DNA of 64,000 nt from Oscillospiraceae bacterium (GCA_015063605.1 SVTV01000011.1:1-64000), one strand, 5' to 3'. Numbered from the stretch's first letter, positions 114-52,363 are shown. Program-made: numbers and translations. The notes: generated by a model not told the origin, from the sequence alone.

Positions 114-150
114 GTCAGTAGTCTGAGTATCTCACTATCGTGAGATGCTC

Positions 151-412
151 AAAAAGTTTGCACTTGTCCGTCAAAAAGGACGACGGACAGTTTGCAAAAG
201 CAAACACGTGCAAACTTTGCACAAGTGCGTAAACCACGCCAAAAAGTTTGCACTTGTCCGCCAAAAAGGACGGCAGACAGTTTGCAAAAGCAAACACGCG
301 CAAACTTCGCATAAGTGCGCAAGCCACGCCAAAAAGTTTGCACTTGTCCGCCAAAAAGGACGGCAGACAGTTTGCAAAAGCAAACACGTGCAAACTTCGC
401 ATAAGTGCGGGT
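151..412. repeat. Tandem direct repeat, 90-bp unit x about 2.9 copies, immediately upstream of GH95 start codon
   Basis: Units at 151-240, 241-330, 331-about 412 nearly identical (AAAAAGTTTGCACTTGTCCG...GCAAAAGCAAACACGTGCAAAC...); internal short inverted repeats (TTTGC-N4-GCAAA, GTGCAAACTTTGCAC). Confidence 0.9.
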
Positions 413-446
413 TACGGTAAAAAATACGAAAGGAACGGTTAAAAAT

Positions 447-7883: not shown

Positions 7884-7948
7884 AAAATCGATCCGCCGTA
7901 TCACGGCGGTGCCGTATAAAGTAAATTAATAGAGGTGAAGTCGAAAAA

Positions 7949-14838: not shown

Positions 14839-14997
14839 ATCAAACGTCAATGTGAGCCGAAAACGATTATTCGTTGTAAAAAATGTAATCTGCTTACATT
14901 ATTCATTGCAAAAAGTGTGATTTGATTGCAAAATACGTTGTAATTTTTGTATTTTTATGATATACTATAATTACATAATTATTACGGAGGTGCGTAT

Positions 14998-17069: not shown

Positions 17070-17106
17070 AGTATCATATATATTTTAAAGAAAGGAAGCT
17101 TGTGTT

Positions 17107-17715
17107 ATGTTTGAATGGTTTGAGGCTTTAAGCAGTATTGCGAAGATATATGCATTCATAGCCATCCCGTCTACGGTCATTCTGGTGATACAGACGGTAC
17201 TGGTGCTTTTCGGAATAGGAGATGCCGAAGCCGATGTGGAGATCGATGCGGACGGCGATCTCGGAGATGTAAGCGCCGACGTTAACGGCGACGGCGGTCT
17301 TACCTTATTCAGCGTCCGCGGGATAATGGCGTTTCTCTGCGTGGGCGGTTGGAGCGGTCTCGTCTTCGAAAAATTGGGACTTCATCTGATAGTTGTTATA
17401 GCCTTGTCCCTTATCTGCGGAAGCGCCGCACTTGTGGGAATAGCTTTTCTTGTGAGAGCTTTATTGAAGCTTCAGGATAACGGCAATACCGATATTTCCA
17501 ACGCCATAGGAAAGATAGGCGAGGTGTACATACCCATTCCCGGAGAAGGAAAGGGAAAAGGAAAAATAACGCTCGTTTTGCAGGAAAAGTTTTCCGAGGT
17601 GTATGCCATAACCCAAGAATCGGAGACTATAAAAACGGGTGAATCGGTCCGTGTGGTGTCCACAAACGGTCTCGATCTTGTTGTAGTGGAAAGGCTCAAG
17701 GGCTTTTCGAAGTAA
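17107..17715 (+). CDS. NfeD-family membrane protein (YuaF-like flotillin partner)
   Basis: N-terminal TM helices plus C-terminal OB-like soluble domain; immediately upstream of flotillin gene, as in the Bacillus yuaF-floT arrangement. Confidence 0.65.
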   Translation: MFEWFEALSSIAKIYAFIAIPSTVILVIQTVLVLFGIGDAEADVEIDADGDLGDVSADVNGDGGLTLFSVRGIMAFLCVGGWSGLVFEKLGLHLIVVIALSLICGSAALVGIAFLVRALLKLQDNGNTDISNAIGKIGEVYIPIPGEGKGKGKITLVLQEKFSEVYAITQESETIKTGESVRVVSTNGLDLVVVERLKGFSK

Positions 17716-17812
17716 TTCAGATTTTTATGCGTTAAGAACGCATTGAAATACCGATATGATCGGATAATATTTTTGTGATTTTAAAAGTAAAATCGGAAAG
17801 GCAAGGTTAAAA

Positions 17813-19210
17813 ATGGAATTGATAATTCTTTTCACCGTGATTGCGGTTCTTCTCTTTACGACGGTAATAGTTTTACTGTCAAGGTACAAAAAGTGTCCTT
17901 CTGACAAGATCATGGTAATTTACGGTAAGGTTGGCACAAACAGCGACGGAACCCAAAGAAGCGCCCGATGCATCCACGGCGGTGCGGCGTTTATATGGCC
18001 CGTGTTCCAGTCGTATCAGTATCTCGATCTTACACCCATATCCATCAGCGTAGATCTTAAGAACGCACTTTCCCGTCAGAATATCCGTATAGATGTTCCT
18101 TCACGTTTTACCGTTGGTATATCCACTGAAAGCGGTATAATGCAGAATGCTGCGGAAAGACTTTTGGGTCTCAAGATGGAAGAGGTACAGAGACTTGCCG
18201 AGGATATTATATTCGGTCAGCTCCGTCTTATCATCGCCACAATGGATATCGAAGAGATAAACACGGACAGAGATAAGTTCCTTGAAGCGGTCTCCGGAAA
18301 TGTTGAAACAGAGCTTAAGAAGATCGGTCTGCGCCTTATCAACGTTAACGTAACGGATATCGATGACGAATCCGGATATATCGTTGCTCTCGGTAAGGAA
18401 GCGGCTTCCAAGGCAATAAATGATGCGAAGGTATCCGTGGCACAGGCTGACAGAGCAGGCTCCATCGGTGCGGCAGAAGCTGAAAGAGACCAGAGAATAA
18501 ACGTATCCCGTTCAAACTCCGAGGCTATCGAGGGTGAAAACCAGGCTAAGGCGAAAATTGCGGAATCCGATGCTATCCGCCGTGAAAAGGAAGCGGAAGC
18601 CTTGAAGAGAGCTACAGCGGCTGAAAATATTCAGGCGGCAAAGGCTCAACAGGAATCCTATGCGGCTCAGCAGGAAGCGGAGCAGGCTCGTGCACTTCTT
18701 GAAAAGGCACGTCTTGAAGCCGATATCATCGTTAAGACGGAAATAGAAAAGAAACGCCTTGAGCTTCAGGCGGAAGCTGAAGCAGAACAGATACGCCGCA
18801 GAGCACGCGGTGAAGCCGATGCTATCAGAATGCGCCGTGAGGCGGAAGCTGTCGGTATGTATGAGATACTTTCAAAGCAGGCGGAAGGTTTTGCCAAGAT
18901 CGTGGATTCCGCAGACGGAAACTCCAATGCGGCTATCAAGCTTATGCTTGCCGATAAGATGGAAAAGCTCATATCCCTCCAGACAGAGGCTATAAAGAAT
19001 ATCAAGATAGACAAGGTCACCGTTTGGGACTCCGGTACGGCAGGAAAGGACGGAAAGAATTCCACAGCGGATTTCATTTCCGGAATAATGAAGTCTCTGC
19101 CTCCCATAAACGATATGCTCGATCTTGCGGGAATGCAGCTTCCCGAATATCTTGCACAGCCTAAAGGCGAAAGTGAAAATGCACCCTCTGAGGAAAACAA
19201 GGCTGAATAA
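17813..19210 (+). CDS. floT: Flotillin-like SPFH/band-7 protein (FloT/YuaG-type)
   Basis: N-terminal TM plus RYKKCPSDKIMVIYGKV SPFH start; long Ala/Glu-rich coiled-coil flotillin domain (AEAERDQRIN...EAEQARALLEKARLEAD). Confidence 0.8.
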   Translation: MELIILFTVIAVLLFTTVIVLLSRYKKCPSDKIMVIYGKVGTNSDGTQRSARCIHGGAAFIWPVFQSYQYLDLTPISISVDLKNALSRQNIRIDVPSRFTVGISTESGIMQNAAERLLGLKMEEVQRLAEDIIFGQLRLIIATMDIEEINTDRDKFLEAVSGNVETELKKIGLRLINVNVTDIDDESGYIVALGKEAASKAINDAKVSVAQADRAGSIGAAEAERDQRINVSRSNSEAIEGENQAKAKIAESDAIRREKEAEALKRATAAENIQAAKAQQESYAAQQEAEQARALLEKARLEADIIVKTEIEKKRLELQAEAEAEQIRRRARGEADAIRMRREAEAVGMYEILSKQAEGFAKIVDSADGNSNAAIKLMLADKMEKLISLQTEAIKNIKIDKVTVWDSGTAGKDGKNSTADFISGIMKSLPPINDMLDLAGMQLPEYLAQPKGESENAPSEENKAE

Positions 19211-20746: not shown

Positions 20747-22195
20747 ATGGAAAATCTCCACTTTTTAAATTACAATGAGACAGGTGCAAACAGTTCGGAA
20801 ATAATAGAGGATTGCTTTGCCGACGGAATGTTCAATGAAAATTTTTATAAAATTCTTTTATCCTCTGCGGGAAAAAGAGAGATCCTTAAACGTCAAAGTG
20901 TTTTCAGAGAAGCGGAAAACGAAGAATGCCTTTTGAAGCTTAGAAATGTTTATGAAGGAAGCATCGGAGTAAAGACAGCGTTAAAATGGGTTGAGCGGGC
21001 AAAAGGGGATTTGGAAAAGCAATGTATGCATCTGAAATTTTTGGATAGCTTTCTCAAGTCCGCTCGGACGCTTGCCGAGTTTTCCCAAAGCTCATGCGAG
21101 CCACTAAGAGAGATAGGCACTTTCTGGGATAATGAACTTAAAAAATATCCGCAGCTTTCAGATGATGTGAAGCGTATATCGGAAGGAATGAAAGAGTTTT
21201 TGACGGTCAATTTGGTGGAAAATGATGAACTTTGGATAACTCCCGATTACGGCAGTGTGTTTTATGTGGATATATTGAAGGATTGTGCCGATGCTCTCGG
21301 AGTTGAATGTCAATTACCTTTCGGAAAAGGAAGCATCAGAAGCCCATATTCTGATTTCCTTTCTCTCTTCGGCGGAAAAAGCGAGGCTGTCAGAGAGACT
21401 TTGGATAAATACACTTTTCTTTTGAAGGACAGCTCCGCAGAGCTTTTGGTGTCTTACGGAAGTGAGATAGATTTTTACCTGACATTTATTGATTTTAAAG
21501 AAAACAAAGGAAGCGCTCTGCCACTTTGCTATCCCGAAATATCTCACGAAAAGAAATTTTATGCAAAGGATGCTGCAGATATATCCCTTGTAGTTCAGAA
21601 CATACCGAAAATTGTGACTAACGATATATATATCGATGAAAGCGAACCGTTTTTCTTCATAGTAGGTGCCAACGGCGGAGGAAAGACATCCTATATTCGT
21701 GCTGTGGGAATAAATCTTCTTTTGTTTTTGGCGGGTTGTCCCATATTCGCAAGAGAAGCGCAAATATATCCGTTTGATAATGTGTTTACGCATTTTCCGA
21801 GAAACGAAAAGGAAGAAACCAAGGGCAGACTCAACGAGGAAACAGTCCGCATACAAAACTTATATGACGGCATGGGAAGAAATTCCGTCATTCTTCTTAA
21901 CGAGACTTTCTCTTCCGTGAGCGAGGAAAACGGTACGGAGCTTTCGTTGGATGCGGCGGAGAAAATACGTAATTCCGGCTGTTTCGGACTTTTTGTAACC
22001 CACTACAGAGATGTATGCTTCTCGGAATATCCCTATTTATCGGCGGAAATACAGAAAGGGAATGATAATAACGGCAGAACATTCAAAATAGTCAGAGAAA
22101 ATCGTGATCCGGAAGCGTATATCAATGATATATTGAGAAGATATCGTCTTGATGAAGAATCCTTGAATGTGAGAATTGCGGCGGAGGTAGAGTAA
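20747..22195 (+). CDS. MutS-core ATPase paralog 1 (MutS domains III-V only; no mismatch-binding, connector or Smr domains)
   Basis: MutS domain V Walker A FFFIVGANGGGKTSYIRAVGINLLLFLAGCPIFA (cf. MutS ITGPNMGGKSTYMRQ...AQIGSFVPA); MutS Walker B/signature region LLNETFSSVSEENGTELSLDAAEKIRNSGCFGLFVTHY. Confidence 0.7.
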   Translation: MENLHFLNYNETGANSSEIIEDCFADGMFNENFYKILLSSAGKREILKRQSVFREAENEECLLKLRNVYEGSIGVKTALKWVERAKGDLEKQCMHLKFLDSFLKSARTLAEFSQSSCEPLREIGTFWDNELKKYPQLSDDVKRISEGMKEFLTVNLVENDELWITPDYGSVFYVDILKDCADALGVECQLPFGKGSIRSPYSDFLSLFGGKSEAVRETLDKYTFLLKDSSAELLVSYGSEIDFYLTFIDFKENKGSALPLCYPEISHEKKFYAKDAADISLVVQNIPKIVTNDIYIDESEPFFFIVGANGGGKTSYIRAVGINLLLFLAGCPIFAREAQIYPFDNVFTHFPRNEKEETKGRLNEETVRIQNLYDGMGRNSVILLNETFSSVSEENGTELSLDAAEKIRNSGCFGLFVTHYRDVCFSEYPYLSAEIQKGNDNNGRTFKIVRENRDPEAYINDILRRYRLDEESLNVRIAAEVE

Positions 22196-23646
22196 TGGAA
22201 TTGAGCTTGATGAATCTTGCGGGAAACGAAGCGCCGAAATCTTGTATGACATTGTGTGATGCAACGAAAAGCGATATTTTGTTTTACAGATTTTTTGAAG
22301 CGCTGTCATGTGTCAACGGCAGAAAAGTAAGCGAACGTGAAGTGTTTTCCGATGCTTTGCGTAAATTGATGACACATCCTCTTTGTACAAAAGAAGAGAT
22401 AGTATACAGACAGGATGTTATTTGCGACTTTATTTCCGACAGAGCACTTTGGGACGGGTTTTATTCCTGCTTTTACCATTTGAATGAATGCAGAGAAGAG
22501 CTCAATGTAAAACTGAAAGAAAATATGGGAGCTTACAGAAACGCTTCAAATGCTATATTCAATGCATGCGGATATCTCAGAAGTGTAAGCTTTATATTGA
22601 AAAGAATACTTCTTATCATGAAAAGGCTTAAAAACGTTCTGGATAGCGGAAATTACAGGAGTGAAGGCTTGAAGCGTTTGCACGAATACGTTATTCCTTT
22701 TGATGACGGGAATGAAAAGCTCAAAGAACTTATTTCTGTTTGCGGAAGATTTGAAATGTTTACTTCCGAAGAAGAACGTGACCTACGCTTGGAGTTTGAC
22801 GATCAGGGATGCATACAAAAATTCGGACTTATAAACGAAAAATACGTAAAATTTACCGATCCCCGTTTGAAAGAGAAGAAGAGCTTTTTCAGGAAAAACA
22901 GCATCGGTGAAGTGTATCCTTCTGTGCGGGTTTCTCTTAACGAAGAAAAAGGCTGTGATGTAAAAGCAGTATCGGATATTTCCGATATGATGCAGGATAT
23001 ATCAAGAAGCATATTTGAATCCGTGGGAACTGTTTGCGACGAGAGAGATGTTTTTAAAGCAGTGCTGTTTTTGTATGATCTTCTTTCGGGTAAAAATATT
23101 CCCCTTTGCTTCCCGGAAGTCAACGAAGGCGAGTGTATATTGTACGAAAATCTTTACGACCCTTTTTTATCTCTTGACGGCGGTATAGAAGTGAAGCCGA
23201 GAACTTTTGCTTTTTCACGCAAAAAGGGGCTTATAGTTTGCGGAGATAACGGAAGCGGAAAGACATTTTTGCTCCGTTCTCTCGGAATGGCTCAGGTCAT
23301 GGCACAAAGCGGATTGTTTGTTACGGCGGAAAATGCCTGTATTAACCTGACAGAATGTGTGAAGACCATCTTTGCCGGCAAAGAAAACGAGAGAGTTAAA
23401 ACGGCAAATAAAGGCAGATTCGAACAGGAAGTCAAGCTCCTTTCCGATGCCGCAAGTGAGGATTCTCCGAGATCGCTTTTGCTTATAAATGAGATATTCC
23501 AATCTACGGATTATAAATTGGCTTCGAAAGCGATGGTTCCTATTTTGGGATTTTTGGCAAAAAAGGGGAACTGCTGTGCTATGGCTACACACCTTGATGA
23601 ACTGAAAATAAATTCCGCTTTTGATAATATAGAATTAAGGAGTTGA
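22195..23646 (+). CDS. MutS-core ATPase paralog 2 (domains III-V only)
   Basis: LIVCGDNGSGKTFLLRSLGMAQVMAQSGLFVTA Walker A; LLINEIFQSTDYKLASKAMVPILGFLAKKGNCCAMATHLDEL; lever-like region EEIVYRQDVICDFISD; TAATG start overlap with paralog 1. Confidence 0.7.
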   Translation: MELSLMNLAGNEAPKSCMTLCDATKSDILFYRFFEALSCVNGRKVSEREVFSDALRKLMTHPLCTKEEIVYRQDVICDFISDRALWDGFYSCFYHLNECREELNVKLKENMGAYRNASNAIFNACGYLRSVSFILKRILLIMKRLKNVLDSGNYRSEGLKRLHEYVIPFDDGNEKLKELISVCGRFEMFTSEEERDLRLEFDDQGCIQKFGLINEKYVKFTDPRLKEKKSFFRKNSIGEVYPSVRVSLNEEKGCDVKAVSDISDMMQDISRSIFESVGTVCDERDVFKAVLFLYDLLSGKNIPLCFPEVNEGECILYENLYDPFLSLDGGIEVKPRTFAFSRKKGLIVCGDNGSGKTFLLRSLGMAQVMAQSGLFVTAENACINLTECVKTIFAGKENERVKTANKGRFEQEVKLLSDAASEDSPRSLLLINEIFQSTDYKLASKAMVPILGFLAKKGNCCAMATHLDELKINSAFDNIELRS

Positions 23647-24273: not shown

Positions 24274-24297
24274 CATATAAATCAATACTATCAATGT

Positions 24298-24420
24298 GAT
24301 TTTGTCGAAGGTTTCGATGAAAAAACGTCGAAGGTTTCGATAAAATTGTGTCAAAAACGTCGAAGGGTTCGACAAAATTGCGTCGAAAGCTTCGATAAAA
24401 TTGTGTCGAAGGTTTCGATA
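24298..24420. repeat. Array of five palindromic sites GTCGAAGGTTTCGA(T/C) (TCGAA-N3-TTCGA) with A-rich spacers, period about 23 bp
   Basis: Copies begin at about 24301, 24324, 24356, 24379, 24402; candidate operator array for a dimeric DNA-binding protein. Confidence 0.8.
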
Positions 24421-24489
24421 TTTCCCGGAATGCTTTGAATCGGTTAAATTTATTTACAACCCCGTTACAAAAAGTTTACAATTTTTCTG

Positions 24490-24669: not shown

Positions 24670-25401
24670 ATGAAAGATGACCTTAAACAGTTTTTAAAGA
24701 ATTTTTTGAAAAAGCTTCTTATATTCCTTGCCGTTGCAGGCGGCATAGTGCTTTTCTTTGTGATCTTTTATGCCATATTCCCAAGCGACGGAGGAAAAGG
24801 TGGCTGGGGATTTAAAAAGCCATCGGGGGGAGAAGCAATTTTAGCCAAGCCCGTTATATACCTCTATCCCGAAGAAACCACAGACGTAAAGGTTGAGCTT
24901 GATATAAGCGGAGAGCTTTACTGTACATATCCGAAGTATGAAGACGGTTGGGAAGTAACGGCGTACCCCGACGGTACTCTTGAAGATAAGAAGGACGGGA
25001 ATGAGTATTCATATCTCTTCTGGGATGCATACAGCGATATCGACTTCGATCTTTCCCGTGGATTTGTTGTAAAGGGAGAAGATACGGCGGAGTTTTTACG
25101 TGATACTTTAAGTAAAATGGGACTTTTGCCGAAGGAATACAATGAATTTATAGTATATTGGCTTCCCTTAATGGAGAAAAACGATTATAATTTTATTACG
25201 TTCCAGAAAGAAGCGTATACGGATAATGCAAAGCTTGATATAACGCCCGCACCCGACAGTATTCTTCGTGTTTACATGGTTTATACTGCCGTTGATGAAG
25301 ATGACGTTAAGAAATACGAGGGAATTGAAGCTCCCAAAATAAAAGGCTTTGAGCGTAAAGGCTTTACGGTAGTTGAATGGGGCGGTTCCGAAATTAAGTA
25401 A
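24670..25401 (+). CDS. N-terminally membrane-anchored extracytoplasmic protein, unknown function
   Basis: Single TM LLIFLAVAGGIVLFFVIFYAIF then Gly-rich linker and soluble domain. Confidence 0.5.
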   Translation: MKDDLKQFLKNFLKKLLIFLAVAGGIVLFFVIFYAIFPSDGGKGGWGFKKPSGGEAILAKPVIYLYPEETTDVKVELDISGELYCTYPKYEDGWEVTAYPDGTLEDKKDGNEYSYLFWDAYSDIDFDLSRGFVVKGEDTAEFLRDTLSKMGLLPKEYNEFIVYWLPLMEKNDYNFITFQKEAYTDNAKLDITPAPDSILRVYMVYTAVDEDDVKKYEGIEAPKIKGFERKGFTVVEWGGSEIK

Positions 25402-27873: not shown

Positions 27874-29235
27874 TTATATTGATATCGTTCCGTCCGAAAG
27901 GTCTTTTGCCGCAAAGGATACAAAGTAAAACGGTATTGTAAGAAGCTTCTGCTCGTTATCGTAACCGTAATTGTTTTTGGAGATCTTTATGGCAAATTCA
28001 AATTTGTTGTGATTGGAGAACTTTTCAAGAGAATTTAAAGTGCCTCTGCCCTTTTTGACATCTATCGGATAAAGCTTGTTATCCGATTCTATGATAAATT
28101 CAAGCTCTGCCGAGGATTTTCCGCGCCAATAAAACAACTTCAGGTCTTTGGCTACCAGCTCATTGGCAACAAAATTTTCGAAAAAGATGCCTGACAGAGT
28201 GTTTTCTCTGCTGCTTGATATGAAGGATGATGCATTGATACCGCTCTGATATGAGAACATGCCGATGTCTCCGAGAAAAAGACGGAAATTACTTTCATTA
28301 TCAGCCATAAGAGGCATCGAAACATGCTCTTTGAGCTGAAATGACTGATTCACAATGTGCGCTAATGTGAGCCACTGAACAGAGGTGGCAAAATCTCTTG
28401 TCCTGCTGTTTTCCTCGATCAGCCCGGGAGAAAAATTCTTCGATTCTTTGTTGAGCTCTTTGAAAATATTCTCGAATAAGGTGCGAGAGCGCAATACCGA
28501 TTCTCTGCTCGCTTGATACAGCTCCATATCCGAAAGGTAATTATCATATAAAGACTTCAATATCTCTCTTGCTTCGAAAAGATCGCCATCGCTTATATAA
28601 GCGTCTACCGCTTCGGGCATTCCGCCTACAAGCAAGTATCTGTATACTTGCTCCATTGCCAGCTCATGGATATTTGCATCCGGAGGTGTTTTTGTATCGT
28701 ACGCTTTTTTTACGGCGTCATAAAGAGGCGTGTTGGAGTTCAGTAAGAATTCGTCAAAGGTCAACGGATACACGGTTATCTGATTTATTTTTCCTACGGG
28801 AAAAAGAAACTTACCGGTCTCCTCGGAGCCCTTTTTTCGTGTCTCCCTTTGGAGCTTGATCCTTACCATAGAACCTGTTGCGATGACGGGGATATCTCTG
28901 AGATCCTGACAAAAGTATTTCAGAGATGATATTATATTCGGACACTCCTGGATCTCATCGAAGATCAAAAGAACGCTTTCGTCTATTCTTCTTCCTTTTG
29001 AAAGAGAAATATATTCTACGATCTTCTCGGCATTTGCGGTCTCGGAGCAAAATTCCCGTATATCGTCTTCCTTCTTCAGATCGATATAGATATAGCTGTT
29101 CTTGTAATACCTTTCGGCAAATATTTTTTGAACAAGGTAAGTCTTTCCGACCTGTCTTGCTCCCCACACGATCAGAGGCTTTTTTCTTTTATTATTATTC
29201 CAGGCTATTAATGATTGCAAAGCAATTCGTTCCAT
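27874..29235 (-). CDS. AAA+ ATPase with DUF4143 domain (second, diverged copy)
   Basis: Walker A WGARQVGKTYLVQ; 453 aa; same architecture as 14998-16296 but low sequence identity. Confidence 0.7.
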   Translation of the reverse strand: MERIALQSLIAWNNNKRKKPLIVWGARQVGKTYLVQKIFAERYYKNSYIYIDLKKEDDIREFCSETANAEKIVEYISLSKGRRIDESVLLIFDEIQECPNIISSLKYFCQDLRDIPVIATGSMVRIKLQRETRKKGSEETGKFLFPVGKINQITVYPLTFDEFLLNSNTPLYDAVKKAYDTKTPPDANIHELAMEQVYRYLLVGGMPEAVDAYISDGDLFEAREILKSLYDNYLSDMELYQASRESVLRSRTLFENIFKELNKESKNFSPGLIEENSRTRDFATSVQWLTLAHIVNQSFQLKEHVSMPLMADNESNFRLFLGDIGMFSYQSGINASSFISSSRENTLSGIFFENFVANELVAKDLKLFYWRGKSSAELEFIIESDNKLYPIDVKKGRGTLNSLEKFSNHNKFEFAIKISKNNYGYDNEQKLLTIPFYFVSFAAKDLSDGTISI

Positions 29236-33818: not shown

Positions 33819-33862
33819 GTTTTGTAAAGTTTTTGTAAAGTTTTGAATTTGATTGTAATGGA
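33819..33862 (-). promoter_or_regulatory. Pho-box-like direct repeats (TTTACA-N5-TTTACA plus flanking TTACAA/TTCAAA at about 11-bp spacing) upstream of Na/Pi cotransporter
   Basis: On minus strand: ccaTTACAAtcaaaTTCAAAacTTTACAaaaacTTTACAaaacc; resembles Gram-positive PhoP-box TT(A/T/C)ACA direct repeats with 11-bp periodicity. Confidence 0.45.
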
Positions 33863-33917
33863 TAAATTTATATTTAACGGCAAAAAGTGTTGAAATATGA
33901 GGAGATAAAACAAAAGG

Positions 33918-34110
33918 GGGGCGTCGCATTAAGCGACGCCCCCGCTAAAACAGCGGACGAAAATAGGGGACGGGAAGCCGCTATTTTCGGAAACTTGAAC
34001 GTTTTTGGCGTGCTTTAGTACGAATTTTTACGTAATTTCGGTGCCAAAACGATGAATTTTATTCATCGAGTTCAATTTCAGGGCTTGGCTCACGTTAGTG
34101 AGACAGCCCC
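33918..34110. repeat. 193-bp structured repeat element, copy A (candidate small RNA or MITE)
   Basis: About 97 percent identical to 52171-52363; starts with hairpin GGGGCGTCGC-ATTAA-GCGACGCCCC, contains CGCTAAAACAGCG and GAAAATAG...CTATTTTC hairpins, ends with GGGCTTGGCTCAC-GTT-AGTGAGACAGCCCC followed by TTTGTTTTC. Confidence 0.8.
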
Positions 34111-34117
34111 TTTGTTT

Positions 34118-34432
34118 TCATTGCCTTTTATTTTCTTTTATTTTTAATACAGCGAAAATGCATACGGATACAAATAATACCACGCCGTACAAAACAGATG
34201 CTCCGAGGCTGAAGAATACCTCACCGAAGTAGGTAAGTCCCGGCATAAAGCCGTATCCCGGAAGGCTGTCAAAGTATCTCATCAGCAAAAACGATACGAC
34301 AAGCGGTAGGAGCTCGGATAAAAGCAAGCTTATCCAAAGCTTTGCCGTATTTTTGCGGATGCATGAGATGAGCAGTAATATCTGTAAAACAAATATCGCA
34401 ATGTATGCTATGAGAAGCAATGTCTGCATCAT
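34118..34432 (-). CDS. Small three-TM membrane protein, unknown function
   Basis: 104 aa, hydrophobic segments; no homology recognised. Confidence 0.35.
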   Translation of the reverse strand: MMQTLLLIAYIAIFVLQILLLISCIRKNTAKLWISLLLSELLPLVVSFLLMRYFDSLPGYGFMPGLTYFGEVFFSLGASVLYGVVLFVSVCIFAVLKIKENKRQ

Positions 34433-40848: not shown

Positions 40849-40992
40849 CTTTAAGACCATTCCTTTTCTGTAAGGCGGGATGACTTTTTATATCATTACT
40901 CCGTGCCTCATATAATTATACACAAAATAAACGGGAAAGTCAATCGAGGTTTGTTATAACGTAAAAAAAATTGCAAATTTTTTTGAAAAACA

Positions 40993-41024
40993 TGTCACAA
41001 AATGCCTTCCTGAATTGTATATAT
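40993..41024 (+). promoter_or_regulatory. Candidate ECF-sigma-type promoter, copy 1: TGTCACAAA-N11-AATTGTATATAT
   Basis: tgtcacaaaatgccttcctgaattgtatatat, about 120 bp upstream of the sigma factor gene; same motif with identical 20-bp spacing recurs at 42440. Confidence 0.5.
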
Positions 41025-42403: not shown

Positions 42404-42439
42404 TTTTTTTCAAAAAAATTGAAATTTTTTCTAAAAATA

Positions 42440-42471
42440 TGTCACAAACTGTTTTTCGTAATTGTATATAT
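42440..42471 (+). promoter_or_regulatory. Candidate ECF-sigma-type promoter, copy 2
   Basis: tgtcacaaactgtttttcgtaattgtatatat, about 90 bp upstream of secreted-protein gene 42562. Confidence 0.5.
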
Positions 42472-43684: not shown

Positions 43685-44962
43685 ATGAAAAGAACATTTT
43701 TGATTTGTATTTCTATGATGTTTATATTCTCATGCTTTTCTTGCACGAGGCAGGAGCTGCCGTATATTTCGGAAGAAGCACCAAAAACACTAGATACCGA
43801 TGTTGTACAAGTATATTCATACGATCCGACAGATGACGGACTTGAAAACGTAAGATTTCCTGAGGTGTATATTACCAATGCAGGATTGTATTACAGTGAC
43901 GGTGAGTTGTATTTCAGATCAAGCGATATGTATTATAAATATAATAAAGAAACAGGAGATTTTTTGCCTTTTTGTAAGGATCCCGTATGCGATCATAGAA
44001 CGCTTGAGTGTCCATTTTATGGTAATACATTTTCGTGCTTTTACATTCATGACGAAAATATTATTTATTTGCAAGACACTCCCGATTTGGAGCACATTTC
44101 CGGATCCAATACGCTTAACATATATGATGTTGAAAAAGACAAAAGAAGAATACTGCATTACTATGACTCTGACTCAAATATGATGAGCTCGAATATGACC
44201 TTCTATAAGGATGAATTGTTATTTACCGATATAGTAAAAGATGAAAAAACAGAAGAATATATATATTCGCTGTGCGCAGTAAACTTAAAAACGGGTAAAA
44301 AACGTATTTTGTTGAGTGAAGCGTGGATGATAGCAGCACTAATGTCAGATGATGGCGGCGTTTACTATACGGACTTAAAGGAACAAAAAAATATATATGC
44401 CAAAAATAATGATCTAAAAGATACGGAAGAACTTCCGTTTTACAATACAAGATTCTTTTTTGTTGGTGATAAAGTTATCTACGTAGATAATAATGGATAC
44501 TTAACTTCTTCTGATAGGTACGGAAATAACAAAAAGAGTTTGGGGATATCCGATATAGACAGTTTCTTTGTAACGGATAAATATATATATTACAGGCACA
44601 ACGGTACCACAAATATAGGAAAAACAATTGAACAGACGGGAAGAGGAGAAAAAATAGAACAAACTATGGAGTTGAATGTCAATTCCATATACAGATGTAA
44701 TCACGACGGAAGCAATATTGAAGAAGTGATAAAGTTCTATGACGGCGAACCTCTTGAAGCGGGGGAAAGTGTGTACTATTCTCAAAGAATGTTTATACTT
44801 TCCGGTTATTATTATACTAAGTATGATCGTCTTATAATGGGTGAAGACGGATATCTTGTGTCTGACACCGGCGATAAAAAGTTCAATAATTATCTCCGTA
44901 TAAACATTGAAACCGGCGAAAAGTATATTATAAAGGTTCCGAATATTTACGTTAACCATTAA
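43685..44962 (+). CDS. Paralogous Cys-motif lipoprotein family member 1 (possibly beta-propeller, DUF5050-like)
   Basis: Lipobox FSCFSC; conserved CKDPVCDHRTLECPF, YSLCAVNLKTGKKR, YRCNHDGSNIEEVIKFYDGEPLEAG, NYLRINIETGEKYIIKVPNIYVNH. Confidence 0.7.
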   Translation: MKRTFLICISMMFIFSCFSCTRQELPYISEEAPKTLDTDVVQVYSYDPTDDGLENVRFPEVYITNAGLYYSDGELYFRSSDMYYKYNKETGDFLPFCKDPVCDHRTLECPFYGNTFSCFYIHDENIIYLQDTPDLEHISGSNTLNIYDVEKDKRRILHYYDSDSNMMSSNMTFYKDELLFTDIVKDEKTEEYIYSLCAVNLKTGKKRILLSEAWMIAALMSDDGGVYYTDLKEQKNIYAKNNDLKDTEELPFYNTRFFFVGDKVIYVDNNGYLTSSDRYGNNKKSLGISDIDSFFVTDKYIYYRHNGTTNIGKTIEQTGRGEKIEQTMELNVNSIYRCNHDGSNIEEVIKFYDGEPLEAGESVYYSQRMFILSGYYYTKYDRLIMGEDGYLVSDTGDKKFNNYLRINIETGEKYIIKVPNIYVNH

Positions 44963-45224
44963 AAGTAAGGCTTGCCGATTTGCGGCAAGCCTTTGAAAAA
45001 ATCGGCTTTGGATTATCAAGAAAAGTGAAACAAAAGTAGTTTTCGATTTGTTATATACATATAAGTGAATTGAATTATAAAATAATCAAAAAACGGCAAG
45101 GTTTACAAATTGTTCATTGACTGTATTTGCGATATATAGTATAATGATACTATGGTATAATAACACATCCGGTATTTGTGCGTCGGTAAAACCATTCAAT
45201 ACTATCGGAGCGAAAGGAGTTACT

Positions 45225-46487
45225 ATGAAAAGAACAATATTAATAGTTATCAGCGCAATATTTGTCTTATCCTGCTTTTCCTGCACTAGGCAGGAATTAC
45301 CGTATCTTTCAGAAGAGATGACGAAAAATGACGGTTTTTCACAAGTATATTCATACACCCCGACCGATGACGGACTTGAAAACGTAATTTTCAGCGGCGT
45401 GTATATGGCATCGAACGATTTATACTACAATGATGGTAATATGTATTTGTGTTCGGCAGATATGTACTACAAAATTGACCTTGAAACGGGAAGACTTACA
45501 ACATTGTGTAAAGACCCGGTGTGCAATCATAAAACATGGGAGTGTCCTTTGCACGGGCAAACCTCGTATTTTTACGTTTTCGGAAAAGATTTTATTTCCA
45601 GACAGTACACATTGATCGGAGGAGAGCGTTTGTTAACGCTTAATCACTTTGATATCGAAAAATCAGTAAGAAAAGTGCTGCATAACTTTAATATGAATTC
45701 AAGTAAACTGATCGAGAACAGGACACTTTACAATGATGAATTATTATTCGTAGATGTTATAAAGGATGAAAAAACAGAAGAGTACATATATTCACTCTGT
45801 GCCGTAAATATAAGAACCGGAAAAAAACGTGTAATGGTACGTGATGCATGGAGAATAACACCTTTAATGGCTGACGAGGGCGGTGTGTACTACTCCGACT
45901 TGAAGGAACAATATTATTTTTATGCAAGAAACAACGATCTTGACGACAGAGAGATACTTCCTTTCTATGCAGTGGCGTTTTATTTAGTGGGGGATAAGAT
46001 AATTTACGAAGACAAAGATGGCTGCCTGATATATTCTGACAGAGACGGAAAAAACAAGATTAATTTGAATATAAAGGGTGTAGACGATTTCTTTGTAACC
46101 GATAACTACGTATATTACCGATATGAGGGAAAAACAAATATTGGAAAAATGCTAACACGAACAGGTCCGGGAAAAACAGAAGAAGTAACGATAGAATTGA
46201 ATATGAATTCCATATACAGATGCAGTCACGACGGAAGCAATGTTGAAGAAGTGATAAGGTTCCATGACGGCGAACCTCTTGAAGCAGGGGAGACCGTGTA
46301 CTATTCTCAAAATATGTTTATACTTTCCGGTTATTACTATACCGGGCTTTTAAGTTATACAATGGGTGAAGACGGATATCTTACAGGAGACCGAGGCGAT
46401 GACAAATGTCGCAATTATCTCCGTATAAACATTGAAACCGGCGAAAAGTATATTATAAAAGTACCGAATATTTACGTTAACCATTAA
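45225..46487 (+). CDS. Paralogous Cys-motif lipoprotein family member 2
   Basis: MKRTILIVISAIFVLSCFSCTRQELPY; CKDPVCNHKTWECPL; same C-terminal motifs; start at ATG 45225 behind AAAGGAG. Confidence 0.7.
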   Translation: MKRTILIVISAIFVLSCFSCTRQELPYLSEEMTKNDGFSQVYSYTPTDDGLENVIFSGVYMASNDLYYNDGNMYLCSADMYYKIDLETGRLTTLCKDPVCNHKTWECPLHGQTSYFYVFGKDFISRQYTLIGGERLLTLNHFDIEKSVRKVLHNFNMNSSKLIENRTLYNDELLFVDVIKDEKTEEYIYSLCAVNIRTGKKRVMVRDAWRITPLMADEGGVYYSDLKEQYYFYARNNDLDDREILPFYAVAFYLVGDKIIYEDKDGCLIYSDRDGKNKINLNIKGVDDFFVTDNYVYYRYEGKTNIGKMLTRTGPGKTEEVTIELNMNSIYRCSHDGSNVEEVIRFHDGEPLEAGETVYYSQNMFILSGYYYTGLLSYTMGEDGYLTGDRGDDKCRNYLRINIETGEKYIIKVPNIYVNH

Positions 46488-46687
46488 AAGTAAGGCTTGC
46501 CGATTTGCGGCAAGCCTTTGAATGAACATTTAAACAATCAAAAAGAACAGAAAAACGGCAAAGTTTACAAATTGTTCATTGATTTTCTTTGCATAATGTT
46601 GTAAAATGATAATGAGATGTTAAAGCACATCCAAATTTTGCACATCGGCAAAAATATCAGAAGCCATTGAAGCGAAAGGAGACCCCC

Positions 46688-47956
46688 ATGAAAAAAATAT
46701 TTTTAATTCTTGTTAGTGTAATACTTGTGTTTTCTTGCGTTTCATGCAAGAGAGAAGAATTGCCGTATTTAACGGAACCTGTAAAAATAGGTGATAATTT
46801 TTCCGAGGTATATACATACGCACCAAATGATGATTCATTAATGAATGTTACATTTCCGGAGTCATTCATACACAATTTAGGATTAGCGTACTACGAAGAT
46901 GAATTGTATCTTGAGTCTCATGACATGGTATACAAAATCAATCTTGAAACCGGAAAACTTACGACCTTGTGTAAAGATCCTATATGCAATCATAGAACAA
47001 AAGAATGTCCTTTTTTTGATTTGTATTCTTATTTTTACATTTTTGATAATAATGTGATTTATTATAGAGATAACACTGTAGTTGAAAAAAATAATATTAC
47101 CAGCAATCTCACAATCGCTTTCTATGATATTAAGAAAAGTAAGTTTTACACACTTTACGAATTTAGCTCCAAACAAAATACTTTCTCGTACAATATGACG
47201 TTATATAATGATGAACTGATGTTTACTGATATAATCCGTGACGAAAAAACAAACGAAAGGACCCATACTTTGTATGCTTTGAACGTAAAAACACGTAAAA
47301 AGAGAGTATTATACAAAGGAGTTCCGCGATACTCCGCTATAACTGCCGATGAAAACGGAGTTTATTATTCTGACAGAGTGAGCGGAAAACATTTGTATGC
47401 CAAAGATAACGATTTGAAAAAAGCTGTAGAGCTTCCTTATAGTTTAGGGTTCACGATAAACGGAAAGATTATTCACAAGACAGACCACACAACTCTTTCT
47501 TCTACACTTGCTTCATATGATTTGAAAACAAATGAATCCAAAGACCTTGGATTAGGTGAAGTAGAGACGTACTTTGTGACAGACAAATACATATATTTCA
47601 GACCGACAGGGGAAATTGATATAGGAAAATTGAAAACCCAGAGCGGGCCGGATCGTGTTTACATAGATCCTTTGATAGATAACTTTAATTCCATTTACAG
47701 ATGTAATCATGATGGAAGTAATGTTGAAGAAGTGATAAAGTTCTATGACGGGGATGTTCAGACGGGAGAGAGTGTGTACTATATTTCGGGAATATTCGTT
47801 TTGGACGGATACTTATATTCGCCTTACTTTAAGTACACCAAACAGGAGGACGGATATTTCACTAATAAGGATGAAGACCCGGATAATGACAAGTACCTCA
47901 GAATAAATATCGAAACAGGAGAAAGATATATAATAAAAACGCCGAGAATGTTTTAA
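46688..47956 (+). CDS. Paralogous Cys-motif lipoprotein family member 3 (most diverged)
   Basis: MKKIFLILVSVILVFSCVSCKREELPY; CKDPICNHRTKECPF; YRCNHDGSNVEEVIKFYDG; ends ...LRINIETGERYIIKTPRMF. Confidence 0.7.
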   Translation: MKKIFLILVSVILVFSCVSCKREELPYLTEPVKIGDNFSEVYTYAPNDDSLMNVTFPESFIHNLGLAYYEDELYLESHDMVYKINLETGKLTTLCKDPICNHRTKECPFFDLYSYFYIFDNNVIYYRDNTVVEKNNITSNLTIAFYDIKKSKFYTLYEFSSKQNTFSYNMTLYNDELMFTDIIRDEKTNERTHTLYALNVKTRKKRVLYKGVPRYSAITADENGVYYSDRVSGKHLYAKDNDLKKAVELPYSLGFTINGKIIHKTDHTTLSSTLASYDLKTNESKDLGLGEVETYFVTDKYIYFRPTGEIDIGKLKTQSGPDRVYIDPLIDNFNSIYRCNHDGSNVEEVIKFYDGDVQTGESVYYISGIFVLDGYLYSPYFKYTKQEDGYFTNKDEDPDNDKYLRINIETGERYIIKTPRMF

Positions 47957-48069
47957 TATGCGATTTTGAAAAAATCGGCTTTGGATTTTCAAGAAAAGTG
48001 AAACATAACACATCCGGTATTTGTGCGTCGGTAAAACTATTCAATACTATCGGAGCGAAAGGAGTTACT

Positions 48070-49341
48070 ATGAAAAGAGCATTATTAATACTCATCAGCG
48101 CAATATTTGTCTTATCCTGCTTTTCTTGCACAAGGCAAGAGCTGCCGTATCTTTCGGAAGAAGCACCAAAAACACTAAATACCGATGTTGTACAAGTATA
48201 TTCATACGATCCGACAGATGACGGACTTGAAAACGTAAGATTTCCTGAGGTGTATATTACCAATGCAGGATTGTATTACAGTGACGGTGAGTTGTATTTC
48301 AAATCAAGCGATATGTATTATAAATATAATATAGAAAGGGGAAATATGTCACCTTTTTGTAAGGATCCTATATGCAATCACAAAACATCGGAGTGTCCTT
48401 TTTACGGTTATATATTTGACGGTTTTTACATTTACGAAGGTAACATTATTTATACACAAAGAGTTCCGATTGGTGAAGATCGTTCCGAAACTCTAAACAT
48501 ATATGATGTAGAGAAAGACGAAAGAAGAATATTGCATCATTTTGATATGAAATCAAGCAGAAGAACTACCAATATGACTTTTTATAACGGAGAATTGTTA
48601 TTTACCGATATAGTAAAAGATGAAAAAACGGAAGAATATATATATTCGCTGTGCGCAGTAAACTTAAAAACGGGTAAAAAACGTATTTTATTAAGTGAGG
48701 GATGGCAGATGTCTGCGCTTATGTCAGATGAAAACGGTGTGTATTACGGAGATGTAAAAAATAAGAAGCTGATATATGCGAGAAATAATGATTTTAATGA
48801 CACAGAAGAGCTTCCGTTTTACAATACACAATTTTATTTTGTCGGGGATAAAGTTATCTACGTAGATAATAATGGATACTTAACTTCTTCTGATAGGTAC
48901 GGAAATAACAAAAAGAATTTGGGGATATCCGATATAGACAGTTTCTTTGTAACGGATAAATATATATATTACAGGCACAACGGTACCACAAATATAGGAA
49001 AAACAATTGAACAGACGGGACGAGGAGAAAAAATAGAACAAACTATGGAGTTGAATGTCAATTCCATATACAGATGCAGCCACGACGGAAGCAATATTGA
49101 AGAAGTGATAAAGTTCTATGACGGTGAACCTCTTGAAGCGGGGGAAAGTGTGTACTATTCTCAAAGTATGTTTATACTTTCCGGATATTATTATACTAAG
49201 TATGATCGTCTTATAATGGGCGAAGACGGATATCTTGTGTCTGACACCGGCGATAAAAAGTTCAATAATTATCTCCGTATAAACATTGAAACCGGCGAAA
49301 AGTATATTATAAAAGTGCCGAATATATACGTAAATCATTGA
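48070..49341 (+). CDS. Paralogous Cys-motif lipoprotein family member 4 (near-identical to member 1 at both ends)
   Basis: MKRALLILISAIFVLSCFSCTRQELPY; about 500 bp at the 3-prime end and about 270 bp at the 5-prime end are about 97 percent identical to member 1 at DNA level. Confidence 0.7.
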   Translation: MKRALLILISAIFVLSCFSCTRQELPYLSEEAPKTLNTDVVQVYSYDPTDDGLENVRFPEVYITNAGLYYSDGELYFKSSDMYYKYNIERGNMSPFCKDPICNHKTSECPFYGYIFDGFYIYEGNIIYTQRVPIGEDRSETLNIYDVEKDERRILHHFDMKSSRRTTNMTFYNGELLFTDIVKDEKTEEYIYSLCAVNLKTGKKRILLSEGWQMSALMSDENGVYYGDVKNKKLIYARNNDFNDTEELPFYNTQFYFVGDKVIYVDNNGYLTSSDRYGNNKKNLGISDIDSFFVTDKYIYYRHNGTTNIGKTIEQTGRGEKIEQTMELNVNSIYRCSHDGSNIEEVIKFYDGEPLEAGESVYYSQSMFILSGYYYTKYDRLIMGEDGYLVSDTGDKKFNNYLRINIETGEKYIIKVPNIYVNH

Positions 49342-52138: not shown

Positions 52139-52170
52139 TTAAACGGAATAATTTGATATTTTTCGGGGTG

Positions 52171-52363
52171 GGGGCGTCGCAATAAGCGACGCCCCCGCTA
52201 AAACAGCGGACGAAAATAGGGGACGGGAACCCGCTATTTTCGGAAACTTGAACGTTTTTGGCGTGTTTTAGTACGAATTTTTACGTAGTTTCGGTGCCAA
52301 AACGATGAATTTTATTCATCGAGTTCAATTTCAGGGCTTGGCTCACGTTAGTGAGACAGCCCC
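52171..52363. repeat. 193-bp structured repeat element, copy B
   Basis: Near-identical to 33918-34110 (about 6 substitutions). Confidence 0.8.

What the first reader, a model, noticed from the sequence alone, without database searches (positions are those of the whole stretch)
33918..34110. 193-bp highly structured element present in two near-identical copies (second copy 52171-52363): small RNA or MITE
The two copies differ at only about 6 positions and both are intergenic. Each begins with a perfect GC hairpin (GGGGCGTCGC-loop-GCGACGCCCC), contains two further hairpins, and ends with a bulged hairpin GGGCTTGGCTCAC-GTT-AGTGAGACAGCCCC. Copy A is followed by a T-run on the plus strand. Its first hairpin is also followed by a T-run on the minus strand, giving terminator-like ends in both orientations. 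Termini GGGGC(G/T)GTC form an imperfect terminal inverted repeat. This could be a miniature transposable element, a duplicated sRNA gene, or a REP-like regulatory/terminator module. Copy A lies between the Na/Pi transporter promoter region and a convergent gene. Copy B lies between an oxidoreductase and the zinc-ribbon protein promoter.
Basis: seen in the sequence. Interest (0 to 1): 0.6.

Follow-up and report, generated by a model that had tools for sequence, protein, structure and literature searches.

The report
Hairpin-rich interspersed repeat in gut Clostridia
The two 194-bp copies are real and belong to a small, previously undescribed family of non-coding, hairpin-packed interspersed repeats in an uncultured goat-gut Oscillospiraceae bacterium; it is most likely selfish mobile DNA that sits where transcription terminators belong, so it is a modest rather than a surprising find.

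Summary
A 194-bp sequence occurs at 33917-34110 and 52170-52363, on the same strand, with 4 mismatches and unrelated flanks. It folds far better than shuffles on either strand (z about -8).

It is more than a duplicated terminator:
- Eight or nine of about 15 independent metagenome contigs of the same species break inside it, and one continues into a third, different flank.
- No copy was detected at either site in the nearest relatives for which sequence is held. The closest one covers only 84 nt past the gene.
- A diverged 3' fragment lies at a non-orthologous site in a related MAG.
- A related array was found at 123-419 on the minus strand: an H5-like hairpin plus three tandem 90-nt units.

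No Rfam family, internal promoter or target-site duplication was found, and the window encodes no transposase. The two terminal hairpins are weakly related to each other in inverted orientation.

Best reading: a new family of modular, BOX/MITE-like interspersed repeats, spread by an unidentified mechanism. Copies A and B lie at operon ends, where their GC hairpins probably act as terminators or RNA 3' protectors. A stand-alone sRNA gene is not excluded without RNA data. Interest is modest.

The parts
33917..34110 (+). Copy A of the 194-nt repeat. It lies 7 nt downstream of the stop codon of the minus-strand 104-aa ORF and about 150 nt upstream of the minus-strand Na/Pi-PhoU gene.
33917..33943 (+). 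H1: perfect 11-bp GC hairpin GGGGGCGTCGC-ATTAA-GCGACGCCCCC. Read on the minus strand and followed by the flanking CTTTTGTTTT, it scores as an intrinsic terminator.
33944..33989 (+). H2 (33944-33954, small) and H3 (33958-33989; 9-bp AU-rich stem with a GC tip). The A/B difference at 33977 lies next to the H3 loop.
33990..34079 (+). H4: 90-nt three-way junction. The outer stem is GAAACTTGAAC/GTTCAATTTC, arm H4a is 34003-34049 (it contains TTTTTGGCGTG) and arm H4b is 34050-34068.
34081..34109 (+). H5: bulged terminal hairpin GGGCTTGGCTCAC-GTTA-GTGAGACAGCCC with apex CTCACGTTAGTGAGA. It is followed by a T-rich flank.
33907..33916 (-). Flank of copy A: AAAACAAAAG on the + strand, which reads CTTTTGTTTT on the minus strand and supplies the U-tract for H1. 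Its first 8 nt (AAAACAAA) are the inverted complement of the right flank TTTGTTTT (34111-34118), like the A- and T-tracts of a bidirectional terminator.
52170..52363 (+). Copy B of the repeat (4 mismatches to A, at element positions 13, 61, 97 and 119). It lies 31 nt downstream of the stop codon of the + strand GFO/IDH/MocA oxidoreductase gene and about 170 nt upstream of the consensus promoter of the zf_Tbcl gene.
123..150 (-). H5-like terminal hairpin of a related array (D). On the minus strand it reads GAGCATCTCACGATAGTGAGATACTC. Its apex matches the element's H5 apex at 14 of 15 positions.
150..419 (-). Array D: about 2.9 tandem 90-nt units. On the minus strand each unit folds into a three-way junction (outer stem plus two hairpins), and the units carry TTTTTGGCG(TG) blocks shared with H4a. 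The array lies directly upstream of the GH95 gene, whose ATG is near 447 on the + strand.

Best explanation
The element is a member of a small family of non-coding, modular, hairpin-rich interspersed repeats in an uncultured goat-gut Oscillospiraceae ('Ruminococcaceae') bacterium. In kind it resembles pneumococcal BOX elements, MITEs and terminator-like repeats.

The 194-nt form is made of five modules:
- a GC-clamp hairpin (H1);
- two small hairpins (H2, H3);
- a 90-nt three-way-junction module (H4);
- a bulged terminal hairpin (H5) that is weakly related to H1 in inverted orientation.
A diverged relative at 123-419 carries three tandem 90-nt units, each holding a smaller three-way junction, next to an H5-like hairpin.

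Shown here: the element has been copied recently (98-99.5% identity) into at least three unrelated intergenic sites. No copy was detected at those sites in the nearest relatives held.

Inferred:
- Copying is done in trans by an unidentified recombinase or transposase that recognises the terminal hairpins and does not duplicate the target.
- Insertions survive at operon boundaries, in or beside intrinsic terminators.
- Once transcribed with the upstream gene, the GC hairpins stop transcription or protect the mRNA 3' end, in either orientation.
For: Shown:
- Two full copies share 98% identity with sharp ends and unrelated flanks.
- A third variant in contig L003 (99.5% to A) continues into a flank that is absent from the window.
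- Eight or nine of about 15 same-species contigs from independent assemblies end inside the element, the usual sign of a repeat longer than the assembler's k-mer.
- At the copy B site, the 93%-identity relative L023 has an ordinary terminator hairpin plus T-tract and no copy in the 84 nt available. The 82% relative has a Flg_new gene there and no copy.
- At the copy A site, the relatives L027 (89%) and L028 (82%) have other upstream neighbours and no copy.
- L027 carries a diverged homologue of element positions 122-194 in a different intergenic region (nhmmer E = 0.006, local alignment z about 6). Its H5 keeps pairing through two compensatory changes.
- Covariance model R1 finds a third locus in the window, 280-123 on the minus strand (31.7 bits, E about 1e-7). 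It shares two colinear same-strand blocks with the element (15/16 and 14/15) and a three-way junction plus terminal hairpin layout. Six of the seven TTTTTGGCG words in the window lie in A, B and D on the same sense strand.
- The terminal hairpins are related in inverted orientation (p about 0.008).
- Copy A's H1 plus flank is a canonical minus-strand terminator directly after the 104-aa ORF. Both copies start 7 and 31 nt after a stop codon, and no other terminator-like site was reported between that gene and the next promoter.
Against: - There is no target-site duplication at A or B and no shared target motif to the left of the three copies (AAAAG, GGGGT, CTATG). The classical DDE-MITE route and the IS200/IS605 route both fail.
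- No transposase, integrase or reverse transcriptase is encoded in the 64-kb window, and no IS with matching ends was seen.
- Copy number is known only as 'at least 3 plus one diverged array'.
- Collection scans found nothing: genome collection (chance hits only), metagenome contigs, viral contigs, plasmids and phages. No true empty site with intact flanks is therefore available.
- The relatives' sites are rearranged or only 84 nt long, so absence there is weaker than a clean empty site.
- Terminator function is only predicted. Copy B's H5 has its T-run 5 nt away and did not pass the terminator scan.
- The relation of array D to A/B is mosaic, not end to end. Global sequence similarity is only z = 3.3. 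The shared TTTTTGGCGTG block lies inside the junction in A/B but in the inter-unit linker in D.
Confidence: 0.6

Rival explanations
1. Multi-copy small-RNA gene. The + strand of the 194-nt unit is a stable trans-acting or protein-sponging RNA ending at H5 plus a U-tract, and the copies are paralogous genes.
For: - Folding is extreme.
- The sense strand folds better than the antisense strand in A, B and D (-84.9 vs -78.3, -85.1 vs -81.9, -136.4 vs -122.3). This is partly through G-U pairs that would be A-C mismatches on the other strand.
- H5 keeps its pairs through two compensatory changes in L027.
- A T-rich tract follows H5 in A and B.
Against: - No promoter-like site lies inside the repeat on either strand, and the upstream flanks are unrelated.
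- At A the sense strand is antisense to both neighbours, at B it is co-directional with the upstream gene, and at D it is antisense to GH95. No consistent transcription unit exists.
- There is no Rfam match.
- Nothing similar was found in any collection scanned or in the relatives' loci held.
- The strand asymmetry rests on only two independent observations, and G-T pairs also stabilise single-stranded DNA.
Confidence: 0.12
2. Not mobile. A structured terminator region was copied once or twice by segmental duplication, gene conversion or recombination between terminators, and is kept because it terminates transcription.
For: - Both copies sit exactly where a terminator is expected.
- Copy A's flanks are the A- and T-tracts of a bidirectional terminator.
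- At B the element occupies the place of the terminator hairpin seen in L023.
- There is no target-site duplication.
- Copy number appears low.
Against: - The element is in opposite orientation relative to the terminated gene at A and B.
- A third flank and widespread assembly breaks are seen.
- A fragment lies in a 5' UTR of a related species, and a diverged tandemised relative lies upstream of GH95. These show the sequence turns up at varied, non-terminator sites.
- The boundaries are base-exact at the hairpin feet, and no flanking sequence was co-duplicated.
Confidence: 0.15
3. A non-autonomous derivative of a single-strand (HUH) transposon or REP-type element, that is an IS200/IS605 'PATE' or a RAYT-mobilised REPIN. 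It would be moved as folded single-stranded DNA through its subterminal hairpins.
For: - Hairpins sit at both ends.
- H5 has a bulge and a mismatch.
- There is no target-site duplication.
- Folding is strand-asymmetric.
Against: - The bases 5' of the left end differ at all three copies (AAAAG, GGGGT, CTATG), whereas IS200/IS605 elements insert 3' of one fixed tetra- or pentanucleotide (my own knowledge of the family).
- Orientation relative to the leading strand is mixed: A and B are on +, D is on -, and GC skew is positive throughout.
- At 194 nt it is much longer than a REP, and it has no GTAG head.
- No tnpA or RAYT gene was seen in the window.
Confidence: 0.08
4. The two direct repeats are attL and attR of an 18-kb integrated island.
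For: Two same-orientation copies lie 18,253 bp apart.
Against: - GFO (inside the supposed island) and zf_Tbcl (outside it) lie on the same contig in the 82% relative, separated only by a Flg_new gene and with no copy of the element. The B junction is therefore ancestral gene order, not an island edge.
- No integrase lies between the copies.
- A third flank exists.
Confidence: 0.02

Closest known systems
BOX elements of Streptococcus pneumoniae and S. suis (boxA-boxB(n)-boxC)
   Same: - Both are small, non-coding, intergenic and tightly folded.
- Both are modular, with distinct terminal modules and an internal module that can be present once or as several tandem copies. Here that is one junction module in A/B and three tandem 90-nt units in D. 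For BOX see PMC3049150.
- BOX elements are co-transcribed with neighbouring genes and are thought to affect their expression.
   Different: - No sequence similarity to BOX was tested or expected, since the host is a different order.
- BOX elements have clear TIRs that pair with each other and make TSDs (PMC3049150). Here no TSD is seen, and the ends fold on themselves rather than with each other.
- Copy number seems far lower here.
[quoted passage not shown]
   Same: - Both carry a GC stem next to T-rich sequence.
- Both lie at 3' ends of genes.
- No TSD could be demonstrated for either, and neither has a matching IS (PMC3049150).
   Different: - SPRITE is a single long stem plus a U-tract.
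- This element has five structured modules, including a three-way junction.
- Its T-tracts are flank, not element, at least at copy A.
Bacterial MITEs (for example Correia elements, RUP, ERIC, Nezha)
   Same: - Size under 500 bp, no ORF, several dispersed near-identical copies and strong secondary structure.
- Weak terminal inverted similarity.
- A likely effect on transcripts.
   Different: - There is no TSD.
- It is not AT-rich relative to the genome.
- The TIR is only about 11 of 16.
- No parent IS was identified.
ssr9 sRNA module mobilised by the IS110-family ISPpu9 in Pseudomonas putida
   Same: A structured non-coding module is found both inside and apart from its IS. It is propagated in trans by a transposase via circular intermediates, without a classical TSD, into palindromic extragenic sequences (PMC12288879).
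   Different: - No IS110-type (DEDD) transposase and no companion IS were seen here.
- The targets at A, B and the third flank share no obvious sequence.
- This is an analogy only, with no test of relatedness.

Membership tests
MITE (miniature inverted-repeat transposable element) | Short (under about 500 bp), non-coding, several dispersed near-identical copies | tested here: met
   The element is 194 nt and no frame is open across it. There are two copies in the window, a third flank in L003, and repeated assembly breaks.
MITE (miniature inverted-repeat transposable element) | Terminal inverted repeats | tested here: inconclusive
   The first 30 nt against the reverse complement of the last 30 nt give 11 of the first 16 ungapped and about 18 of 24 gapped. 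The score is 10 against shuffles of 5.6 +/- 1.2 (p about 0.008). This is real but weak, and each end is itself a hairpin.
MITE (miniature inverted-repeat transposable element) | Target-site duplication flanking each copy | tested here: not met
   No direct repeat of 3 nt or more abuts the ends of A (AAAAG|...|TTTGT) or B (GGGGT|...|ATCTC).
MITE (miniature inverted-repeat transposable element) | AT-rich relative to the host genome | tested here: not met
   The element has GC 0.48 against 0.4375 for the window.
MITE (miniature inverted-repeat transposable element) | A parent IS in the same host with matching ends | not testable with these tools
   No transposase is encoded in the window and no other occurrence of the end sequences was found. 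The rest of the genome is not available, and the one genome-collection scan gave only chance hits.
BOX-type modular repeats | Distinct end modules plus an internal module of variable tandem copy number | tested here: met
   A/B have H1-H3, one junction module (H4) and H5. Array D has about 2.9 tandem 90-nt units plus an H5-like hairpin. The modules of D and A/B are only mosaically similar.
BOX-type modular repeats | Sequence homology to boxA, boxB or boxC | not tested
   No BOX models are available in the tools. Rfam gave no hit of any kind.
IS200/IS605-derived PATE | Subterminal imperfect hairpins at both ends and no TSD | tested here: met
   H1 and H5 lie at the very ends and there is no TSD.
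IS200/IS605-derived PATE | Insertion 3' of one fixed tetra- or pentanucleotide | tested here: not met
   The left flanks are AAAAG (A), GGGGT (B) and CTATG (L003 copy).
Intrinsic (Rho-independent) terminator | GC-rich stem-loop directly followed by a T-run on the transcribed strand | tested here: inconclusive
   At copy A on the minus strand H1 plus CTTTTGTTTT passes the scan, with 11 pairs of which 10 are GC. At copy B on the + strand H5 is followed by ATCTCTTGTTTTG and does not pass.
Any Rfam RNA family | Score at or above the family's gathering threshold | tested here: not met
   There were 0 matches in the whole window at gathering thresholds. E-value scans of A, B and D gave only sub-threshold noise.
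Stand-alone sRNA gene | Own promoter conserved with the RNA, a discrete transcript and conservation in relatives | tested here: not met
   No promoter-like site lies within the repeat and the upstream flanks are unrelated. No copy was detected at the corresponding sites in relatives. The transcript itself cannot be tested with these tools.

The most novel reading that the evidence does not exclude
The family may be a new type of structure-guided mobile module. It would be a non-autonomous element whose terminal hairpins and three-way-junction RNA or ssDNA are used by an as yet unseen recombinase (HUH-, IS110/bridge-like, or other) to insert without target duplication into terminator-like sites. 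Alternatively, the sense-strand RNA could itself be a functional multi-copy regulator with an iterated protein-binding module marked by the TTTTTGGCG and CTCACGWTAGTGAGA motifs.
Probability: 0.1. Interest if true: 0.65.

Novelty: new member of a known kind. Interest (0 to 1): 0.35.

Why it matters
Small interspersed repeats are poorly catalogued in uncultured gut Clostridia, yet they have practical consequences. They break metagenome assemblies; here 8-9 of about 15 contigs end inside this 194-bp element. They also mark rearrangement points and can rewire transcription at operon boundaries.

A defined model of this family (ends, modules, covariance model) would help MAG finishing and annotation for this lineage. 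It is also a candidate for a transposition route that leaves no target duplication. Beyond that it is an ordinary kind of feature: no new biology is demonstrated.

Tried and rejected
Searches that found nothing useful:
- Rfam at gathering thresholds on the whole window, and at E-value thresholds on A, B and D, gave nothing meaningful.
- Exact-pattern scans: metagenome contigs twice, 0 hits; viral contigs four times, 0 hits.
- The genome-collection 20-mer scan gave 3 hits. All were chance matches of 20-29 nt with no further similarity.
- Distant-mode blastn against plasmids and phages gave no match.
- A protein search with concatenated six-frame peptides of the element, meant to catch spurious ORF calls on other copies, gave no hit at E <= 10.
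- Look-ups meant to extend beyond the window or approach the copies from the other side failed or gave only short contigs.

Hypotheses rejected:
- attL/attR of an 18-kb island. GFO and zf_Tbcl lie on the same contig in a relative, separated only by a Flg_new gene.
- A tracrRNA-like or CRISPR link, retron, group II intron or integron attC. No Cas, reverse transcriptase or integrase gene is in the window and there is no Rfam hit.
- A Tn3-type TIR (GGGG...). No 5-bp TSD is present.
- A small protein gene. The only ATG-started frame (MNFIHRVQFQGLAHVSETAP...) runs out into unrelated flank in each copy.

Not used as evidence of homology: the covariance model's alignment of 'H1' in L027 falls on the Na/Pi gene's own terminator. 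Only element positions 122-194 are treated as homologous there.

Full report
**1. Observation**

The window holds a 194-nt sequence twice, at 33917-34110 (copy A) and 52170-52363 (copy B). Both are on the + strand, 18,253 bp apart, with 4 mismatches. Similarity ends abruptly on both sides. No further full copy is in the window by word-7 blastn or nhmmer.

The sequence folds far better than dinucleotide shuffles on either strand: -84.9 and -78.3 kcal/mol, z = -8.0 and -8.2. The fold is a chain of modules:
- H1, a perfect 11-bp GC hairpin.
- H2, a small hairpin.
- H3, an AU-rich stem with a GC tip.
- H4, a 90-nt three-way junction with an outer stem GAAACTTGAAC/GTTCAATTTC and arms H4a and H4b.
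- H5, a bulged hairpin with apex CTCACGTTAGTGAGA.

The corrections are listed in the observation check.

**2. Context and organism**

Neighbouring proteins identify an uncultured Oscillospiraceae ('Ruminococcaceae bacterium') MAG. Identical genes occur in goat-gut metagenomes from JGI and ENA.

Copy A lies 7 nt after the stop codon of a minus-strand 104-aa ORF, the last gene of a GH/DUF5107 cluster. It is about 150 nt upstream of a minus-strand Na/Pi-PhoU gene that has Pho-box-like repeats. Copy B lies 31 nt after the stop codon of a plus-strand GFO/IDH/MocA oxidoreductase gene. It is about 170 nt upstream of a perfect TTGACA-17-TATAAT promoter for a zf_Tbcl gene.

Both copies therefore sit at operon ends, but in opposite orientation relative to the gene they follow. 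Pfam scans of essentially all ORFs in the window show ordinary chromosomal genes. No transposase, integrase, reverse transcriptase or Cas protein is present. GC skew is positive throughout, so the + strand is the leading strand.

**3. Evidence that it is a dispersed repeat, not a one-off duplication**

(a) Exact-protein look-ups returned about 15 independent contigs of the same species that reach one of the copies. Six span it, and eight or nine end inside it. This is the behaviour of a multi-copy repeat in short-read assembly.

(b) Contig L003 crosses the element from the copy A side and continues past H1 into a flank (CATAGTTGAGTTTTGC...) found nowhere in the window or in other loci. Its copy is a third sequence variant, 99.5% identical to A.

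(c) No copy was detected in relatives at either site.
- The 93%-identity GFO homologue (L023) is followed by an ordinary terminator hairpin and a T-tract, with no copy in the 84 nt available. The window's flanks align to that T-tract with the element in place of the hairpin.
- The 82% relative has a Flg_new gene between GFO and zf_Tbcl and no copy.
- Relatives with 89% and 82% Na/Pi proteins have other upstream neighbours and no copy.
- These are not clean empty sites, so the evidence is good but not decisive.

(d) In L027, the 89% relative, a diverged homologue of element positions 122-194 sits in the 5' UTR of the phoP-like regulator gene. It comprises AGTTCAATTTC plus an H5 hairpin. The window and L028 lack about 70 nt at that position (nhmmer E = 0.006). 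Its H5 keeps 10 of 11 pairs, with two double (compensatory) changes and one wobble.

**4. A related array in the window**

A covariance model built from the three copies (R1) finds, besides A and B, one more locus: 280-123 on the minus strand (31.7 bits, E about 1e-7). The hit also appears with filters off. It lies in a 90-bp x 2.9 tandem array at 150-409, next to a hairpin at 123-150.

On the minus strand each unit folds as a 64-nt three-way junction: outer stem AAGUUUGCAC/GUGCAAACUU, hairpin GUUUGC-UUUU-GCAAAC and hairpin UGUCCGUCG...CGACGGACA. A roughly 26-nt linker completes the 90-nt unit. The last unit is followed by GAGCAUCUCACGAUAGUGAGAUACUC.

The links to A/B are these:
- The hairpin apex matches H5 at 14 of 15 positions. 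A 15-mer with two or fewer mismatches is expected 0.1 times per window.
- A second block, TTTTTGGCGTGnTTTA, matches H4a at 15 of 16 positions. It is on the same strand, colinear, and at similar spacing.
- Six of the seven TTTTTGGCG words in the window lie in A, B and this array, all on the same sense strand.

Global sequence similarity is weak (z = 3.3), and the shared blocks are in a different register relative to the junction. I therefore call this array (D) a mosaic relative. Together the loci indicate a modular family: end hairpins plus an internal module that can be iterated.

**5. What it is not**

- No Rfam family matches.
- No promoter-like site lies inside the repeat on either strand, and the upstream flanks are unrelated.
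- No frame is open across the element.
- There is no target-site duplication at A or B, and no common motif left of the three copies. This argues against a classical DDE-type MITE and against IS200/IS605-type insertion.
- The termini are weakly related in inverted orientation (p about 0.008).
- The element is not AT-rich (0.48 against 0.4375).
- The two copies are not island boundaries, because GFO and zf_Tbcl lie on one contig in a relative, separated only by a Flg_new gene.

**6. How it most likely works**

Shown: recent copying to unrelated intergenic sites, base-exact ends at the hairpin feet, no copy detected at those sites in relatives, and related pieces elsewhere.

Inferred: movement in trans by an unidentified enzyme that recognises the two related terminal hairpins and leaves no duplication.

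Also inferred: survival at, and perhaps preference for, terminator positions. Copy A is bracketed by AAAACAAAAG and TTTGTTTT, the A- and T-tracts of a bidirectional terminator. With the flank, H1 is a canonical minus-strand terminator directly after the 104-aa ORF. Copy B occupies the place of the hairpin seen in L023 and is followed by the T-rich tail, although it does not pass the terminator scan. Once co-transcribed, the GC hairpins would terminate transcription or protect 3' ends in either orientation.

In A, B and D the model's sense strand folds better than its complement by 3-14 kcal/mol. This is a weak hint, from two independent observations, of selection on one strand as RNA or ssDNA.

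**7. Comparison with known elements**

The closest in organisation are the pneumococcal and S. suis BOX elements (A-B(n)-C modules) and the terminator-like SPRITE repeats (PMC3049150). The closest in general kind are bacterial MITEs. A possible mechanistic analogue for TSD-free spread of a structured module is the ssr9 module moved by the IS110-family ISPpu9 (PMC12288879). Membership in MITE or PATE fails on tested defining features (TSD and fixed target respectively). The BOX likeness is architectural only.

**8. Verdict**

This is a real, previously uncatalogued family of structured interspersed repeats: a new member of a known kind. Confidence is about 0.6 for the dispersed or mobile repeat reading. 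Lower-weight rivals are passive duplication (0.15), an sRNA gene (0.12) and an HUH-type element (0.08). Interest is modest at 0.35. The mechanism of spread without TSD, and the iterated junction module, are the only unusual points. Both need the full genome and RNA data to pursue.

Noticed in passing
window 123-419: A 90-bp x 2.9 tandem array plus an adjacent hairpin lies directly upstream of the GH95 gene and folds with z about -10 on both strands. It turned out to be a mosaic relative of the reported element (an H5-like apex matching 14/15, a shared TTTTTGGCGTG block, and a covariance-model hit of 31.7 bits).
   Followed up: yes
window 33820-33844 (also L027 about 5700-5735 and L028 about 7930-7960): A direct repeat TTTTGTAAAGT x 2.3 (CTTTACAAAAACTTTACAAAA on the gene strand) lies upstream of the Na/Pi-PhoU gene. 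It is conserved in two related species, and a PhoR/PhoP-like two-component system sits just downstream, so these are probably Pho boxes.
   Followed up: partly
L027 7674-7752: A related MAG (GCA_054293825.1) has a roughly 70-nt insertion in the 5' UTR of its phoP-like response-regulator gene. The insertion carries AGTTCAATTTC plus an H5-like hairpin. The gene caller's start at 7767 is probably 13 codons too early; MIYCVEDD starts at 7806.
   Followed up: partly
window 24281-24433: An array of five or six palindromic boxes GTCGAAGGnTTCGAC, at periods of 23/32/55 nt, lies upstream of an unannotated 243-aa ORF (24670-25401). It looks like an operator or iteron array.
   Followed up: no
window 43685-49341: Four tandem paralogous genes of 425-456 aa with weak DUF5050 matches lie in a low-GC stretch (0.35). 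They follow a sigma-factor/DUF4367 anti-sigma pair.
   Followed up: no
window 40965-41024 and 42412-42471: A 60-nt repeat (80% identity) lies in front of the sigma-factor operon and of a 148-aa ORF. It may be a duplicated sigma-dependent promoter.
   Followed up: no
window 14998-16296 (+) and 27874-29235 (-): Two AAA_14/DUF4143 ATPase genes in inverted orientation bracket a lower-GC segment. That segment contains two adjacent MutS_V-domain ORFs (20747-23646) and several ORFs with no Pfam match.
   Followed up: no
window 16494-19210 compared with L020 8044-10795: Gene order differs from the 82% relative. There zf_Tbcl is followed directly by the DUF1836/Band_7 cluster, which in the window lies about 35 kb away. 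Both element copies sit where gene order differs from relatives (a Flg_new gene is absent at B, and the upstream neighbour differs at A).
   Followed up: partly
window 14866-14943: A 32-nt x 2.4 imperfect tandem repeat lies in the intergenic region upstream of the first AAA_14 gene.
   Followed up: no
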